From positions 1-61,534 of the forward strand of contig BEIK01000004.1 of NCBI GenBank assembly GCA_002923395.1: 61,534 bases of DNA, given 5' to 3'. A program made the position numbers and the translations under genes. Positions within the stretch are counted from its first letter, which is position 1; the number at the start of each line of letters is the position of its first letter. The stretch comes from a bacterium HR34 (GTDB lineage Bacteria > Patescibacteriota > Minisyncoccia > Minisyncoccales > HRBIN34). The notes beneath the pieces were generated by a model. That model did not search any database, was not told where the DNA came from, and saw only the letters and a program-made list of their open reading frames with translations. Of the stretch, positions 3 to 18,949 are shown in pieces.

Positions 3-1721
3 GATTTAACAGTGAAAGTTTTATCCCCTAGAAGTAAGTCAGAAGATGCGAGAAACGGCGATGGGTTTTGGGAGAAAAGCGAGTTGCAAGAAAAAGACCG
101 GGAAGTTACAGAAGCACGTTATTGGAACGAAAATTCTTTAGCTTTTTTGATTTCTTATGGTGATTTTGACGCACTTTTTACCGGTGACATACCAAAGTAT
201 ACAAGCCAGCCTTATATAATAAGTAGATACAAGGATCTATTAGTTAAGACGGAGATCGTTGGTATTCCTCATCATGGTAAGAATGGTAATTATTTCAACT
301 CAGAGTTCGCTAAAACTATTGGTAAAGACGCAGCTGTTGTGATAGGTATAGCAACTAGAGATTATGAGGACGTAATTCTTAACGGTTACAAAAATAATAA
401 TAATAAAATAATTATTTTAGATGGAAAAAACAATGGCAGGATTACTGTATCAATAGAAGGAGGCTCTAATCAGTTTACAGTTTGCCAAAGTGTAGGAAAT
501 ATTTGTAAAACATATAGTTTAACTTCTAGTTTAACTTCCGGTGGAGCGTCTTTGTCTGAATCTTTATCAGAGTCAGTTGAAAAATGCGGAGAAAGCGCAT
601 ATTTTGGTCCGAATGGCATTTTCCAAAAAGCGTACATTTCTTATAGGGGAAAACAATATGATACTTCAACGCCTTTTCTTGGTATTTATCATGGTGAAGG
701 CTTTGAATTTGTTATTGAAGCTAAAGTAGATACAGATGATAAAAAGAAATGTATGATTTTATTACACCCAAGTTCCTACGCTTTAGGTTATATTGAGGCT
801 AACGGAGCGTCGGATAAACAAACTTTTATTAAGTTTTCAGAGGATACAGAAGGCAGTACAATAACTTACAGAATACCATATAGGTTTGATTTATATGATA
901 ACAGTGGCAATCCTTTGGTTGATAATTTTAAAGGTAAAGTTAATATTTATCTTTTTGAAATAGTACAATTTCACCCTGAAGTTAAGACAACCCTTCATTA
1001 TAGAATACCTTTTGCGACTTTTAATATTAATATAAGAAAACCTGAAATTTATAATTTTTACCAATCAAACTCTGTTATCAATATTTATGATACTAATAGC
1101 AATAATGACAGTTTTGAAATAAAGTTCTCTTTCACAGGTCTTAAAGAAGGTGATGAGTATAGTATTTATTATGATGTAGATGGTGATGGAAGTTTCGAAC
1201 TTTATGACAATAAAAAATATACTTTTTCTCATACTGGCAGTTCTTCAAGTCAGGAGGTTTTTATTCTATGCAATAATTTTACGAAAAGCGGCGCTAATTT
1301 TGTGTATAAGTGTGCTGTTGATGGCGATGAACCAAGTACGTTTTTCATTAAACCAAGCGCTTATTCAGGAAAATTATTCGTTGTTTTAACTGACTACAAA
1401 ATAGATGGGAATTATTATTTGGCTACTGATCATTTTACTGTACCAGTTACAGTTTGTGATGAGAAGTCTTGTTTTTTTGGTGTTTTTCCAAAGAGTAATA
1501 TTGAGGAGTTTATAAATTCTCTTTCTAATTTTGTTTTTGTTTTAATATCAATAGGAGCAATTTTAATGATTATTATAGGTGGTTTTGTTCTTTTAACTTC
1601 AGGAGGTAATTATGAAAGAATACAAAAAGGCAAAAAGATTCTAACTTATGCAATTTTAGGTTTTGTAGTGGCTTTATTTGCTAATATAATATACGCTTTA
1701 ATTAAAACGATAATAATTTAG
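3..1721 (+). CDS. 5'-partial fusion protein: ComEC/Rec2-type metallo-beta-lactamase C-terminal part + large beta-rich domain + C-terminal CPR-type (TrbC/VirB2-like) pilin
   Basis: Frame is open to the window edge (DLTVKVLSP). MBL motifs NENSL..LFTGD and PHHG; C-terminal two-TM pilin pattern (IIIGGFVLLTSGGNYERIQKGKKILTYAILGFVVAL). Confidence 0.7.
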   Translation, partial: DLTVKVLSPRSKSEDARNGDGFWEKSELQEKDREVTEARYWNENSLAFLISYGDFDALFTGDIPKYTSQPYIISRYKDLLVKTEIVGIPHHGKNGNYFNSEFAKTIGKDAAVVIGIATRDYEDVILNGYKNNNNKIIILDGKNNGRITVSIEGGSNQFTVCQSVGNICKTYSLTSSLTSGGASLSESLSESVEKCGESAYFGPNGIFQKAYISYRGKQYDTSTPFLGIYHGEGFEFVIEAKVDTDDKKKCMILLHPSSYALGYIEANGASDKQTFIKFSEDTEGSTITYRIPYRFDLYDNSGNPLVDNFKGKVNIYLFEIVQFHPEVKTTLHYRIPFATFNINIRKPEIYNFYQSNSVINIYDTNSNNDSFEIKFSFTGLKEGDEYSIYYDVDGDGSFELYDNKKYTFSHTGSSSSQEVFILCNNFTKSGANFVYKCAVDGDEPSTFFIKPSAYSGKLFVVLTDYKIDGNYYLATDHFTVPVTVCDEKSCFFGVFPKSNIEEFINSLSNFVFVLISIGAILMIIIGGFVLLTSGGNYERIQKGKKILTYAILGFVVALFANIIYALIKTIII

Positions 1722-1944: not shown

Positions 1945-3414
1945 ATGGAAAATAAGAATTTTAAAAAACCTCCTGTTGTGGTGGTGATGGGTCATGTTGA
2001 CGCTGGCAAGACCTCTATTTTAGATTACATAAGAAGAACTAAAGTTGCAGAGAAAGAAGCAGGTGGAATAACTCAACATATAGGAGCATATCAAATTGAT
2101 TATAAAGGCAATAAAATAACATTTTTAGATACGCCGGGACATGAAGCTTTTAATGCTATGAGAAGTAGGGGAGCAAAAGTTGCTGATATTGCTGTTTTGG
2201 TTGTTGGTGCAGATGAAGGCGTAAAACCCCAAACAAAAGAAGCAATTGAAATAATTAAAAAAGAAGGCTTGCCAATGATAGTTGCCATAAACAAAATAGA
2301 CAAACCAGGCGCTGATATTGAAAAAGTAAAAAGTGATTTAGCGCAACACGGAGTTTTACTTGAAGGATATGGAGGCGATGTTTCTTTTGCGGCAACAAGC
2401 GCCAAAACAGGCCACGGAATAGACGAACTATTAGAACTTATCATATTGGCTTATGAACTATCTCCTGTTAATGTTAGTTTAGAAGGCGAATTAGAAGGTG
2501 TTATAATAGAAGCAACAAAAGACAGCAAAAAAGGAAACGTAGCAACGGTTTTAATAAGAAATGGAGTTTTAAGAATTGGTGATATAATAGGAACAAAATC
2601 GGCCTATGCTAAAGTTAAAATGATGGAAGATTTTACAGGAATGAAAGTAAAAGAGGTTTTACCCGGAATGCCTGTTTTAATTTTCGGGTTTAAAAATCTT
2701 CCTGTTGTAGGTGATAAAGTTAAAAGATTTAATTCTCAACAAGAGGCTGAAAGTTATATTAAGAAAAAAGAAAGAAAAGAAAAAGAAATTAATGTTTTGC
2801 CAAACCATGAAGGCAAAAAAGTAATAAATATTGTTTTAAAAGCAGACGTAGAAGGAAGCTTGGATGCTTTAGAATATGTGTTAAAAGGAATAAAAGACGA
2901 AGAAGTTTTATTAAGAATTATTAAAAAAGGGGTGGGAGAAGCGACTGATAAAGACGCCAAAATAGCAGATGCTGGGAATGCTATTATATTTGCCTTTAGA
3001 ACTAAAATTTCAAAGCCAGCGTTAAATTTAATTGATGCTAAAAAGATTAAAGTATACACAGCAGATGTTATATATGATTTTGTGGAAGTTGCGAGAAAAA
3101 TGATAGATGATATTAAAAAACCAAAAGAGCAAAGAATTGATTTGGGAAAATTAAAAGTTTTAGTTGTTTTTATGACTAAAAAACAAAGGCAAATAATTGG
3201 TTGTAGGGTTTTAGATGGAGAGGTTAGGAAAGGAGTAAGATTAGAGATTTTAAGAGATGGAGAGGTTATAGGAGAGGGTAAACTTATAAGTTTGGAGAAA
3301 AACAAACAAGATATAGGTCAAGCAAAGAAAGGAGATGAAGTTGGCATATTATATGAGGGCAATGTGAAAATAGAAGTTGGCGACGAGATAAACGTTTATT
3401 ACATTGAGAAATAA
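1945..3414 (+). CDS. infB: Translation initiation factor IF-2 (short N-terminus)
   Basis: GHVDAGKT, GGITQHIGAY, DTPGHEAF, NKID, KADVEGS motifs. Confidence 0.97.
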   Translation: MENKNFKKPPVVVVMGHVDAGKTSILDYIRRTKVAEKEAGGITQHIGAYQIDYKGNKITFLDTPGHEAFNAMRSRGAKVADIAVLVVGADEGVKPQTKEAIEIIKKEGLPMIVAINKIDKPGADIEKVKSDLAQHGVLLEGYGGDVSFAATSAKTGHGIDELLELIILAYELSPVNVSLEGELEGVIIEATKDSKKGNVATVLIRNGVLRIGDIIGTKSAYAKVKMMEDFTGMKVKEVLPGMPVLIFGFKNLPVVGDKVKRFNSQQEAESYIKKKERKEKEINVLPNHEGKKVINIVLKADVEGSLDALEYVLKGIKDEEVLLRIIKKGVGEATDKDAKIADAGNAIIFAFRTKISKPALNLIDAKKIKVYTADVIYDFVEVARKMIDDIKKPKEQRIDLGKLKVLVVFMTKKQRQIIGCRVLDGEVRKGVRLEILRDGEVIGEGKLISLEKNKQDIGQAKKGDEVGILYEGNVKIEVGDEINVYYIEK

Positions 3415-17357: not shown

Positions 17358-17595
17358 AAATATAATACCCTTTATTTTTTATCTTTTCTTCTATGTCTTT
17401 GGAGGCTTTTTCTATGTGGCAAAATTTACATTCATTTGACGACAATTCTTGCCCTTCTTCACCTTTAGTTTTTAGGTATTCATTTCCATATGCGATAACT
17501 TTTTCATAAGGAGTATTTTTCTCTACTATTATATCAAAGTGCATTATCCTGCCGTCTTTTCTTTTTACATAAGTATCGTAAACTGCTATTTCCAT
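17338..17595 (-). CDS. DUF2024-family protein
   Basis: VYDTYV.RKDG.IMHFDI, ECKFCH.E.A. Confidence 0.8.
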   Translation of the reverse strand: MEIAVYDTYVKRKDGRIMHFDIIVEKNTPYEKVIAYGNEYLKTKGEEGQELSSNECKFCHIEKASKDIEEKIKNKGYYIYEMENC

Positions 17596-17671
17596 ATTTT
17601 TGTTGATTTAATTTAAATTTATAATTAATATTTAATATTACAAATTTAATATTACAAAAAATTACAAAAAT

Positions 17672-18949
17672 ATGGAAGGGGAGAATAGTAGGTTTTACGA
17701 ATTACCATCAAAAGAAAGGGTTTCTGCGAAAAATGTAGAGGAGAAAATTAGGAATATAGAAGATGAGAGAGAATTGAGTAGGCTTTATAACGCTATTTCT
17801 TATTTTTTGCGTTATGGAATAGAATCTTTTTCAAGGGCTGTTGATTTATCTATTGTGGGGATTGAAAAACGGAAAGAATTTGAAAATTATAGAAGTTTAG
17901 ATGAATATTGTGCATCTTTTGGGTTAGATGATAAGCAAATTACTCGTTTGAAAAATGATTTAGCAGAAGAAGCAAAATTTATAATACCTCAATTTAAAAA
18001 TTTAGCCTATTTATATTTAAAAGGGGATTTAGAGGATTATTTAAAAAAAATTTTAAGTGTGTTATCACCTTATAAAAGTGAAAATGATGAAAAAATAGAG
18101 AAAAGGAGAATAGATGAGATTATATATTTAATAGAAAATTTTATTGAAGAAACGTTGCAAGATAAAAGTATAGATGAATTTGTAGGAAAGATCGATGATT
18201 TAGAATTTTATAAAAATGAAATCATCTTTTTGATATATACTACTTTTTTACGCATAAAAAGAGGTGAATTTGTATCTACCATCGCCGAAGATATGAGAAA
18301 TAAATTAATACAATTATCTATAGAAATAGTATCTTCAGAAAATCTACCGAATTATTTTTATACAAATAATTATTTTAATCTAAACAAAAAAGAAGTTAAA
18401 AGTTTTAAAAATTTTGTTTTGGAAACTGGAGTTATATCAGAAGATGAATGGGATGTTTTTTTAGAATTTTTTAATACCATATCTTTAGAGTATTGCAAGT
18501 ATATATATGAAAAGATTATATATAAAATTACCAAAAATTTGATTAATAAAGATATAGCATCCGCAATTTATTCATTCGATGAGAGTAAGATAGAAGAGTT
18601 GAAAGATGAGTTTGAAAAAATTTTTAATATTAATTTGAGAATTGAAAAATTTAATAAAAAAATTCCCGACAAGAAAGTAGACAATAGAGATGTTGTTTTA
18701 TTAAAACTAATATTGGAGCGTATTGTTGATGTTCTTATAATAAATTCTGTAAAATCTATAGTGGTGAAATATTTCCCAGAGGCGATAAATAAAGAATATG
18801 AAATTATACAAAATATAGAGGGAATACTTGCATCGCTTGAGCTTCCAAAAGATAAAGAACAAAATAAAAACGCATTTGAATATGGGTTATCTATATTAAA
18901 GGAAATTCAAAAACTTTACTTTGAAAATTATAATGAAGAAAAGTCATAA
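17672..18949 (+). CDS. Hypothetical protein
   Basis: 425-aa helical E/K-rich ORF. Confidence 0.7.
   Translation: MEGENSRFYELPSKERVSAKNVEEKIRNIEDERELSRLYNAISYFLRYGIESFSRAVDLSIVGIEKRKEFENYRSLDEYCASFGLDDKQITRLKNDLAEEAKFIIPQFKNLAYLYLKGDLEDYLKKILSVLSPYKSENDEKIEKRRIDEIIYLIENFIEETLQDKSIDEFVGKIDDLEFYKNEIIFLIYTTFLRIKRGEFVSTIAEDMRNKLIQLSIEIVSSENLPNYFYTNNYFNLNKKEVKSFKNFVLETGVISEDEWDVFLEFFNTISLEYCKYIYEKIIYKITKNLINKDIASAIYSFDESKIEELKDEFEKIFNINLRIEKFNKKIPDKKVDNRDVVLLKLILERIVDVLIINSVKSIVVKYFPEAINKEYEIIQNIEGILASLELPKDKEQNKNAFEYGLSILKEIQKLYFENYNEEKS

What the first reader, a model, noticed from the sequence alone, without database searches (positions are those of the whole stretch)
3..1721. ComEC-type MBL nuclease-like domain fused to a CPR pilin
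Seen: the C-terminal half of a ComEC/Rec2 metallo-beta-lactamase domain, about 300 aa of Cys-containing beta-rich sequence, and a terminal two-helix pilin. Established: ComEC MBL domains are linked to DNA processing during uptake, and CPR genomes encode many VirB2-like pilins. Inference: an enzyme-bearing pilin or membrane-anchored surface nuclease for scavenging DNA or nucleotides from the host or environment. The N-terminus, including HxHxDH and any signal peptide, lies outside the window.
Basis: partly seen in the sequence, partly recalled or inferred. Interest (0 to 1): 0.62.

Follow-up and report, generated by a model that had tools for sequence, protein, structure and literature searches.

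The report
Secretion pilin carrying a nuclease-like enzyme
An ultra-small (Patescibacteria) bacterium encodes a 729-residue surface protein that joins a ComEC-type DNA-cutting-like enzyme domain, through antibody-like spacer domains, to a type IV secretion pilin; the fusion was found only in this lineage and links that poorly understood secretion system to nucleic-acid processing.

Summary
The ORF at window 3..1721 is the 3' part of a 729-aa gene cut by the contig start. A unique 99-base overlap with contig C16, and an independent public contig (L023), give the whole gene.

Its parts, in order:
- A Sec-type signal peptide.
- A divergent ComEC-type metallo-beta-lactamase (MBL) domain with motif II intact (H84-P-H86-C-D88-H89). 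It also has the ComEC-typical Asn in motif III, then D219 and H247.
- A Ser-rich linker.
- About 290 aa of tandem Ig-like beta-sandwiches.
- A VirB2-like hairpin (Pfam T4SS_pilin, E 2.7e-12, above the curated cut-off).

The closest solved relative by sequence and by fold is the ComEC nuclease domain, PDB 9IC4.

It is the third gene of a tandem pilin array; the two upstream paralogues have the same head and hairpin but no MBL. The genome also has an ordinary split ComEC (channel plus its own MBL) and a T4SS-like cluster (VirB4, VirB6, PrgI, pilin) beside dnaA.

No other MBL-pilin fusion appeared in searches of 1.84 and 5.8 billion proteins or in about 460 Patescibacteria genomes.

Most likely it is a surface-displayed phosphodiesterase, probably a nuclease. 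Enzyme activity and incorporation into a pilus are inferred, not shown.

The parts
3..521 (+). C-terminal 173 residues (158-330) of the ComEC-type MBL domain. Residues 1-157, with the signal peptide and H84-x-H86-x-D88-H89, lie on contig C16 (and on L023:4252-4722).
   Evidence: Contains motif III (Asn), motif IV (Asp) and the HHG motif.
126..137 (+). NENS (residues 199-202): Asn at the motif III position, the ComEC hallmark in place of the usual His.
   Evidence: Alignment A1 and the phmmer alignment to 9ic4; the rule is stated in PMC8579336.
186..188 (+). D219, the motif IV metal-bridging Asp, equivalent to D700 of the Moorella glycerini ComEC domain.
270..281 (+). H247-H248-G249-K250. H247 is equivalent to H725 of the Moorella glycerini ComEC MBL domain (called BLACTMg in PMC12455585; PDB 9IC4). 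K250 replaces the substrate-contacting S728.
522..596 (+). Low-complexity Ser-rich linker (residues 331-355), very low model confidence, differing by indels between L023 and L024.
597..1466 (+). Head of tandem Ig-like beta-sandwich domains (residues 356-645). It is shared at about 40% identity with the two upstream paralogues (420 and 462 aa).
   Evidence: In the searches run it matched only this lineage's proteins: the three paralogous genes here and their counterparts on L024.
1497..1694 (+). T4SS_pilin (PF18895) VirB2-like helical hairpin (residues 656-721). Two hydrophobic helices flank the basic loop GGNYERIQKGKK.
   Evidence: helices 654-688 and 694-728, pLDDT about 80.
1719..1721 (+). 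Stop codon of the 729-aa gene. A 223-base spacer follows before infB (1945..3414).
   Evidence: no terminator-like site found.

Best explanation
The gene encodes a Sec-exported cell-surface protein. Its C-terminal VirB2-like hairpin (T4SS_pilin family) holds it in the cytoplasmic membrane. The hairpin may also allow the genome's T4SS-like machine to incorporate the protein into a pilus-like fibre.

Its extracellular part is a stalk of Ig-like beta-sandwich domains tipped by a binuclear-metal phosphodiesterase of the ComEC type. That enzyme most probably cuts extracellular or host-derived nucleic acid at the cell surface or at the contact with the host. This would feed nucleotide scavenging or DNA processing.

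It arose when an MBL module with its own signal peptide was joined in frame to the third member of a lineage-specific tandem array of head-bearing pilins.

Shown here: the domain order, the conserved metal ligands, the fold, the paralogue array, and the presence of the T4SS genes and of a separate regular ComEC. Inferred: export and topology, catalytic activity, the substrate, and pilus incorporation.
For: Architecture
- The 729-aa ORF is confirmed on three assemblies.
- PF18895 matches at E 2.7e-12, above the cut-off.
- The AlphaFold2 model shows an MBL domain (29-330), beta-sandwiches (356-645) and a two-helix hairpin (654-728).

Enzyme type
- PDB sequence hits are the ComEC MBL domains 9ic4 and 30bt.
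- Foldseek gives 9IC4 at E 1.3e-13, probability 1.0, TM 0.76.
- The only hits in the big collection are full-length ComECs.
- All five metal-coordinating residues that were mutated in the Moorella glycerini ComEC MBL domain (BLACTMg) are present as H84, H86, D88, H89 and D219. Their BLACTMg equivalents are H598, D600, D602, H603 and D700.
- H725 is present as H247, and motif III is Asn as in ComEC.
- That domain is an experimentally shown Mn-dependent endonuclease and 5'-exonuclease (PMC8579336, PMC12455585).
- All motifs are kept in the 92%-identical relative.

Context
- The two upstream paralogues have the same head and hairpin without the MBL, and gene starts and stops overlap, as in an operon.
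- The genome has 8 PF18895 genes.
- A cluster with VirB6/TrbL, PrgI, a VirB4-like ATPase and a pilin lies beside dnaA/dnaN. This matches the published Patescibacteria T4SS (PMC12102498).
- G+C content is like the rest of the window.
Against: - The MBL domain is very divergent. Pfam Lactamase_B scores 17.5 bits, below the 22.7 cut-off.
- The family-typical DVGQGD and GHPH motifs are absent, and S728 is replaced by Lys.
- dN/dS against the close relative is 0.66 for the MBL domain but 0.07 for the head. The counts are small (12 synonymous, 31 non-synonymous changes), so this is only compatible with relaxed constraint.
- The isolated ComEC MBL domain binds DNA poorly and relies on an OB fold (PMC12455585). 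No OB, HhH or other DNA-binding domain was detected here.
- The gene is not next to the T4SS cluster.
- A 729-aa subunit is far larger than any characterised VirB2 pilin.
- Model confidence is moderate (mean pLDDT 67.5).
Confidence: 0.6

Rival explanations
1. The MBL domain is a surface phosphodiesterase that acts on a non-nucleic-acid substrate, for example phosphodiester-linked wall polymers of the host. This would resemble the pneumococcal teichoic-acid phosphorylcholine esterase Pce/CbpE. The enzyme would then remodel or breach the host envelope.
For: - Pce (1wra, 2bib) is the second-best fold match (E 2.3e-10).
- Pce is the known closest structural relative of ComEC MBL domains (PMC8579336, PMC12455585).
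- Motif II here is HxHxDH as in Pce, not the HxDxDH of Bacillus and Moorella ComEC.
- No DNA-binding module was found.
- Earlier notes of this scan describe pilin hairpins that carry wall-cutting enzymes (unchecked leads).
Against: - Sequence searches hit only ComEC domains, never Pce.
- Motif III is Asn as in ComEC, where Pce has His.
- Several true ComECs and split ComEC MBLs also have HxHxDH.
- No choline-binding repeats are present.
Confidence: 0.18
2. The MBL domain is catalytically dead and serves as a binding or adhesion module on a head-bearing pilin.
For: - The conserved DVGQGD and GHPH motifs are lost, and Ser is replaced by Lys after HHG.
- The domain sits on a long branch of 2.47 substitutions per site.
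- dN/dS is 0.66.
- Head-bearing pilins of same-order relatives carry only Ig/TIG/InlB-type adhesin-like modules.
- S. pneumoniae ComEC is discussed as a possibly inactive MBL that is nevertheless retained (PMC8579336).
Against: - Every metal ligand shown to be needed for activity in the Moorella ComEC domain is retained.
- These ligands are also conserved between the two available orthologues.
- Two other Patescibacteria MBLs that also lack GHPH keep the same ligands. This suggests an active subfamily.
Confidence: 0.12
3. The protein replaces a missing nuclease domain of ComEC. Under this reading the channel ORF lacks an MBL and this pilin-anchored MBL is its partner in DNA uptake.
For: The genome's ComEC channel ORF is only 493 aa and has no MBL domain.
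Against: - The genome has the ordinary separate ComEC MBL: 276 aa at C18:3281-4111, TM-anchored, with DVGQGD, HPEYDH, HHGS and NHPH.
- That gene groups with the split MBLs of same-order relatives.
- The same split is the rule in 60 same-order genomes and across most of 400 phylum genomes.
- The target is only 26% identical to the C18 protein.
Confidence: 0.04
4. The fusion is an assembly chimera or a mis-joined ORF.
For: The window's contig breaks inside the gene.
Against: - The junction between MBL, linker and head lies inside contig C4 itself.
- The C16/C4 join is a unique 99-base overlap.
- Two independent Logan assemblies from different runs carry the same continuous ORF.
Confidence: 0.01

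Closest known systems
C-terminal beta-lactamase-like nuclease domain of ComEC (Moorella glycerini BLACT, PDB 9IC4; B. subtilis and M. thermoacetica ComEC CTD)
   Same: - It has the MBL fold and is the best sequence and fold match.
- It shares motif II, Asn at motif III, the bridging Asp and the HHG motif.
- It faces the outside of the cytoplasmic membrane.
   Different: - The target is not attached to, or encoded with, a ComEC channel.
- It lacks DVGQGD and GHPH, and has Lys in place of the substrate Ser.
- It carries a 20-25 residue insertion (about 169-192).
- It is exported by its own signal peptide and is followed by Ig-like domains and a pilin hairpin.
Split ComEC MBL subunit of Patescibacteria (here C18:3281-4111, 276 aa; about 290-aa ORFs in nearly all relatives)
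   Same: It is a stand-alone, membrane-tethered extracellular ComEC-type MBL in the same genome and phylum.
   Different: - The canonical subunit is anchored by one N-terminal helix and keeps all ComEC motifs.
- The target is only 26% identical to it.
- The target is anchored at the C-terminus by a pilin hairpin and is an additional, lineage-restricted gene.
VirB2-like T4SS pilins and pilin arrays of Patescibacteria (Pfam PF18895; Quinonero-Coronel et al. 2025, PMC12102498)
   Same: - The same hairpin family, with the conserved GG...T(S/A)GG...K(G)K loop.
- A tandem array of divergent paralogues.
- A genome with an MPF-FATA-like T4SS beside dnaA.
   Different: - Typical members are 100-200 aa.
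- This one has about 630 aa of ectodomain, including an enzyme.
- The paper describes no enzyme-bearing pilins.
Teichoic-acid phosphorylcholine esterase Pce/CbpE of S. pneumoniae (PDB 1WRA, 2BIB)
   Same: It is a surface-attached MBL phosphodiesterase, the second-best fold match, with HxHxDH in motif II.
   Different: - Pce has His at motif III and is attached by choline-binding repeats.
- No sequence-level hit was found.
Membrane-anchored competence nucleases NucA (B. subtilis) and EndA (S. pneumoniae)
   Same: They work alike under the main reading: a nuclease tethered on the outer face of the membrane that processes incoming DNA (roles as described in PMC8262900 and PMC8579336).
   Different: The folds are unrelated (they are not MBLs), they have a single-helix anchor, and they have no pilin module.
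TM-anchored Ig-Ig-MBL proteins of other Patescibacteria (G135:C103, 582 aa; G180:C64, 524+ aa)
   Same: - An extracellular ComEC-like MBL combined with beta-sandwich domains and a membrane anchor.
- The same HHG-x-(N/D)-G variant.
- The same absence of GHPH.
   Different: - The domain order is reversed (anchor, sandwiches, MBL).
- The anchor is an N-terminal helix and there is no pilin.
- The two do not group with the target in the tree.

Membership tests
Metallo-beta-lactamase superfamily, ComEC-type nuclease domain | alpha-beta/beta-alpha MBL fold | tested here: met
   Foldseek of the AlphaFold2 model: 9IC4 at E 1.3e-13, probability 1.0, target-normalised TM 0.76. Model pLDDT is 70-88 over most of residues 29-165 and lower in 250-300.
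Metallo-beta-lactamase superfamily, ComEC-type nuclease domain | Motif II H-x-(H/D)-x-D-H | tested here: met
   H84-P-H86-C-D88-H89, aligned to H598-x-D600-x-D602-H603 of the Moorella glycerini ComEC MBL domain.
Metallo-beta-lactamase superfamily, ComEC-type nuclease domain | Asn in place of the motif III His (the ComEC hallmark stated in PMC8579336) | tested here: met
   N199-E-N201-S aligns with the NNNS/NENS of ComEC domains.
Metallo-beta-lactamase superfamily, ComEC-type nuclease domain | Motif IV bridging Asp and the HHG histidine | tested here: met
   D219 is equivalent to D700 and H247 to H725.
Metallo-beta-lactamase superfamily, ComEC-type nuclease domain | Family-typical DVGQGD, HHGS and GHPH motifs | tested here: not met
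   The target has ETHIGMA in place of DVGQGD and HHGK in place of HHGS. GHPH falls in a 3-column gap (alignment A1).
Metallo-beta-lactamase superfamily, ComEC-type nuclease domain | Curated profile thresholds (Pfam Lactamase_B; NCBIfam ComEC_Rec2) | tested here: not met
   PF00753 scores 17.5 bits against 22.7. TIGR00361 scores 28.2 bits against 190, but that model spans the whole three-domain ComEC.
Metallo-beta-lactamase superfamily, ComEC-type nuclease domain | Part of, or the partner subunit of, the ComEC channel | tested here: not met
   A separate canonical split pair exists: C1:73846-75327 and C18:3281-4111.
Metallo-beta-lactamase superfamily, ComEC-type nuclease domain | Metal-dependent nuclease activity | not testable with these tools
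   Needs a biochemical assay.
T4SS_pilin (PF18895) / VirB2-like pilins | Profile match above the gathering score | tested here: met
   E 2.7e-12, 47.0 bits against 26.6, residues 656-721. TrbC/VirB2 (PF04956) is only sub-threshold, at E 0.034.
T4SS_pilin (PF18895) / VirB2-like pilins | Signal peptide plus two hydrophobic helices joined by a short basic loop | tested here: met
   The sequence shows MRKYF...AHA|E and the loop GGNYERIQKGKK. The model shows helices 654-688 and 694-728. Cleavage and topology are inferred.
T4SS_pilin (PF18895) / VirB2-like pilins | T4SS assembly genes in the same genome | tested here: met
   On contig C7: TrbL/VirB6 (6.4e-8), PrgI (8.8e-7), a VirB4-like ATPase (P-loop_TraG 2e-28) and a pilin.
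T4SS_pilin (PF18895) / VirB2-like pilins | Small size (about 100-200 aa) and position next to virB4 | tested here: not met
   The protein is 729 aa and lies on another contig, between metG and infB. Arrays away from virB4 are, however, reported (PMC12102498).
T4SS_pilin (PF18895) / VirB2-like pilins | Polymerises into a pilus | not testable with these tools
   No experiment for any PF18895 protein was found in the papers read.
Pce/CbpE-type phosphorylcholine esterase | His at motif III and choline-binding repeats | tested here: not met
   Motif III is Asn and there is no CW_binding hit. Only the fold is similar.

The most novel reading that the evidence does not exclude
The Patescibacteria T4SS-like machine builds, or is capped by, a VirB2-type fibre into which this protein is incorporated. 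The filament would then carry an active ComEC-type nuclease to the host cell or to environmental DNA: an 'armed pilus' that harvests nucleic acid. This would give physical support to the published suggestion that the T4SS, rather than the dispensable competence system, is the route of nucleotide acquisition in these bacteria (PMC11665869).
Probability: 0.18. Interest if true: 0.85.

Novelty: new variant of a known kind. Interest (0 to 1): 0.56.

Why it matters
In Patescibacteria the T4SS and its pilin arrays are widespread, and in the one species tested genetically (Southlakia epibionticum) they are essential. What the system moves is unknown (PMC12102498, PMC11665869).

Competence genes are dispensable for growth in that species. 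Reviewers have therefore proposed the T4SS as an alternative route to nucleotides.

A pilin-family protein that carries the same kind of nuclease domain that ComEC uses is a concrete, testable genetic link between the two systems. It also shows that the pilin hairpin can act as a chassis for a phosphodiesterase cargo.

Its weakness is rarity. I found it in only three assemblies of one lineage, so it is a clue and not a general rule.

Tried and rejected
2. My hypothesis that the protein replaces a missing ComEC nuclease was rejected. A canonical split ComEC MBL exists on C18.
3. A PF03135 (CagE/VirB4) search of the genome was negative. A tblastn with a relative's ATPase and a Pfam scan then found the VirB4-like gene through P-loop_TraG/AAA_10.
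4. The search for homologous proteins on the pilin region alone returned only the query itself, because the domain is too short for that database size.
5. The search for related loci gave nothing in genome contigs. In metagenome contigs it gave one weak hit, a secreted stand-alone MBL from soil that is cut by the contig end.
6. The ten largest pilin-family hits of the global search carried no enzyme domains. The big-headed pilins of same-order relatives carried only Ig/TIG/InlB-type domains.
7. I fetched four of the long 'open frames' around MBL hits in the phylum survey. One was a stand-alone MBL in a long stop-free stretch; the other three loci showed only ComEC channel ORFs, so none gave evidence of a fusion.
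8. A maximum-likelihood tree could not place the target. It sits on a long, unresolved branch.
9. Foldseek of the head alone gave only generic Ig-like matches.
Full report
**Observation**

The window begins at the first base of contig C4 of a 579-kb, 22-contig, roughly 30% G+C genome. An ORF open at its 5' end runs from base 3 to 1721 on the + strand (572 aa). Its last 70 residues match Pfam T4SS_pilin (PF18895) at E 2.2e-12, above the gathering score. The TrbC/VirB2 family matches only below threshold.

The reverse complement of contig C16 ends with the same 99 bases that begin C4. This is the only link of that end in the assembly. The join gives a 729-aa ORF.

The join is independently confirmed. 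A Logan contig from run DRR101367 (L023, 8631 bp) carries, uninterrupted, metG, a 420-aa pilin, a 462-aa pilin, the identical 729-aa gene, infB and rbfA. A contig from run DRR163687 (L024) has the same gene order and a 92%-identical copy, cut by the contig end. The fusion is therefore not an assembly artefact.

**Anatomy**

- Residues 1-25: a typical Sec signal peptide (MRKYFLFLLTLFVAVFFFNSGYAHA|EGG). Cleavage is inferred from the sequence.
- Residues about 29-330: the MBL domain.
- Residues 331-355: a Ser-rich, low-confidence linker that differs by indels between the two orthologues.
- Residues 356-645: tandem beta-sandwiches with conserved Cys pairs.
- Residues 654-728: two long hydrophobic helices joined by the basic loop GGNYERIQKGKK.

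This layout comes from the AlphaFold2 model (mean pLDDT 67.5) and from alignments A1 and A2.

By the positive-inside rule, and by analogy with VirB2/TraA pilins (established knowledge), the loop faces the cytoplasm or the pilus lumen. Everything N-terminal of the hairpin is then outside the cell.

**The enzyme domain**

Several independent searches point to the ComEC-type MBL:

- By sequence, the best solved relatives are 9ic4 (E 8.6e-8) and 30bt, a full-length ComEC (E 4e-5). Class B beta-lactamases score far weaker.
- NCBIfam's best hits are ComEC_Rec2 and the ComEC family model. Both are far below their whole-protein cut-offs, as expected for one divergent domain.
- In the 5.8-billion-protein collection, the MBL region retrieves only full-length ComECs, at 25-33% identity.
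- Foldseek of the model ranks 9IC4 first (E 1.3e-13, TM 0.76). The pneumococcal phosphorylcholine esterase Pce comes next (E 2.3e-10). Pce is also the reported nearest structural neighbour of ComEC domains.

9IC4 is the ComEC domain of Moorella glycerini, a Mn2+-dependent endonuclease and 5'-exonuclease. Its H598, D600, D602, H603 and D700 are needed for metal binding, and H725 and S728 contact the substrate (PMC12455585). Using the phmmer alignment, these map onto the target as follows:

| Moorella glycerini domain | Target |
|---|---|
| H598 | H84 |
| D600 | H86 |
| D602 | D88 |
| H603 | H89 |
| D700 | D219 |
| H725 | H247 |
| S728 | K250 |

Motif III is Asn (N199/N201), the feature that distinguishes ComEC domains from Pce and other MBLs (PMC8579336).

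Against full membership:

- The DVGQGD and GHPH motifs are absent. They are present in every ComEC and split-ComEC MBL I aligned.
- Pfam Lactamase_B is sub-threshold.
- The domain sits on a very long, unplaced branch.
- dN/dS between the two orthologues is 0.66 for the MBL domain against 0.07 for the head, though the counts are small.

**It is not the cell's ComEC nuclease**

The genome's ComEC channel ORF is 493 aa and lacks an MBL. I therefore suspected that the pilin-borne MBL replaces it. That idea is wrong.

A TIGR00361 scan shows that in all but two of 60 same-order genomes ComEC matches only as separate pieces. One is a channel ORF of about 500 aa and the other is a TM-anchored MBL ORF of about 290 aa. 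This genome has that canonical MBL at C18:3281-4111, with all ComEC motifs. The same split dominates a 400-genome sample of the phylum.

The C18 protein clusters with the split MBLs of same-order relatives. The target does not, and is only 26% identical to it. The pilin-borne MBL is thus an extra, divergent paralogue.

**The pilin side**

- The genome has eight PF18895 genes.
- The two genes immediately upstream of the target share its head and hairpin (about 40% identity) but start the head directly after their signal peptides. The target therefore looks like a head-bearing pilin that acquired an N-terminal MBL module.
- Gene boundaries overlap (metG/pilin A and pilin B/MBL-pilin), as in an operon.
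- On contig C7, beside dnaA and dnaN, lie a TrbL/VirB6 protein, a PrgI (VirB3-like) protein, a VirB4-like ATPase and a small pilin. The ATPase matches P-loop_TraG at 2e-28 and is 68% identical to a relative's.
- That cluster matches the monoderm-type T4SS described for Patescibacteria. The description includes the location near the replication origin and pilin arrays of 2-11 genes (PMC12102498).
- Same-order relatives have 600-800-aa PF18895 proteins whose heads are TIG, HYDIN-like Ig or InlB-repeat domains. A big adhesin-like head on this hairpin is therefore common, whereas an enzyme at its tip is not.

**Rarity**

- A full HMMER scan of 1.84 billion representative proteins with the window fragment found the head only in the two paralogues. 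Everything else matched the hairpin alone.
- The word-indexed search found, in addition, only the DRR163687 relative.
- No MBL hit in 60 same-order or 400 phylum-wide genomes lay in a frame with a pilin.
- The nearest analogues are two proteins of another family (G135, G180). They have an N-terminal helix, two beta-sandwich domains and a C-terminal ComEC-like MBL that shares the target's HHG-x-(N/D)-G variant and its lack of GHPH.
- These searches would miss very divergent fusions, so 'unique' means 'not found at this sensitivity'.

**Mechanism**

The most likely reading (about 0.6) is a surface-displayed metal-dependent phosphodiesterase, probably a nuclease. It would be held on an Ig-like stalk by a pilin-family hairpin, and it would process extracellular or host nucleic acid.

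- Shown: the architecture, the ligand conservation, the fold and the genomic context.
- Inferred: export, activity, substrate, and whether the T4SS moves the hairpin into a fibre.

Rivals are a Pce-like esterase acting on wall polymers (0.18) and an inactive binding module (0.12). The ComEC-replacement and chimera ideas are effectively excluded.

**Relation to earlier notes of this scan**

Several follow-up reports describe PF18895 hairpins fused to peptidoglycan hydrolases in other Patescibacteria. None mentions an MBL or nuclease cargo. I treat these as leads. In the relatives I inspected I saw Ig-like heads but no enzymes. A note on lineage-wide split ComEC agrees.

**Verdict**

It is a new variant (a phosphodiesterase cargo) of the head-bearing T4SS pilins of Patescibacteria. 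It is restricted to one lineage and its function is untested. Interest is moderate to high, because it ties a ComEC-type nuclease domain to a secretion system whose role is an open question.

Noticed in passing
L023:2909-2992 (= contig C16, complement 1828-1911), upstream of the window: The genome's only tRNA-Ser(CGA) gene lies inside the 5' end of the called 462-aa pilin ORF (codons 15-42). Between the tRNA and the signal-peptide core there is no ATG, GTG or TTG, only ATA, ATC and ATT. The relative L024 has the same arrangement. Either the pilin has a long leader translated through the tRNA sequence, or it starts at a rare codon after tRNA processing.
   Followed up: partly
G000 C1:73846-75327 and C18:3281-4111; 60 same-order and 400 phylum genomes: ComEC is split into a channel ORF of about 500 aa and a separate TM-anchored MBL ORF of about 290 aa, usually at unlinked loci. 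This holds in nearly all same-order relatives and in most of the phylum sample. A minority of lineages keep a fused ComEC of 700-870 aa.
   Followed up: partly
G000 C7:20996-28227 (minus strand), next to dnaA (17517-18911) and dnaN: A compact T4SS-like cluster: VirB6/TrbL (804 aa), a 130-aa ORF, PrgI (136 aa), a 221-aa ORF, a VirB4-like ATPase (600 aa), a 323-aa coiled-coil membrane protein and a 178-aa pilin. I did not look for a relaxase or a coupling protein.
   Followed up: partly
G000 C7:29432-32731 (minus strand): A 1099-aa protein with no Pfam hit lies just upstream of the T4SS cluster. It ends in two hydrophobic helices that resemble a pilin-like hairpin, so it may be another cargo-bearing member.
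   Followed up: no
Proteins P0006-P0010 and P0015: Some proteins of 500-820 aa match the pilin hairpin in 6-8 separate stretches. They appear to be concatenated pilin hairpins in a single polypeptide.
   Followed up: no
L034:1734-3482 (G135) and L035:31-1605 (G180): Patescibacteria proteins with an N-terminal helix, two beta-sandwich domains and a C-terminal ComEC-like MBL that lacks GHPH. They may represent a distinct surface MBL subfamily, and they sit beside prfB.
   Followed up: partly
Own genome C1:44937-46472; relatives L017-L021: A pilin array lies directly downstream of gyrA in the own genome, where recG follows it. In several same-order relatives the pilin genes lie near gyrA after a small methyltransferase gene, and in L017 they are followed by recG. 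The neighbourhood therefore looks conserved.
   Followed up: no
Window 1945-3414: infB encodes only 489 aa. It has the GTPase and C-terminal domains but not the long N-terminal region of typical bacterial IF-2.
   Followed up: no
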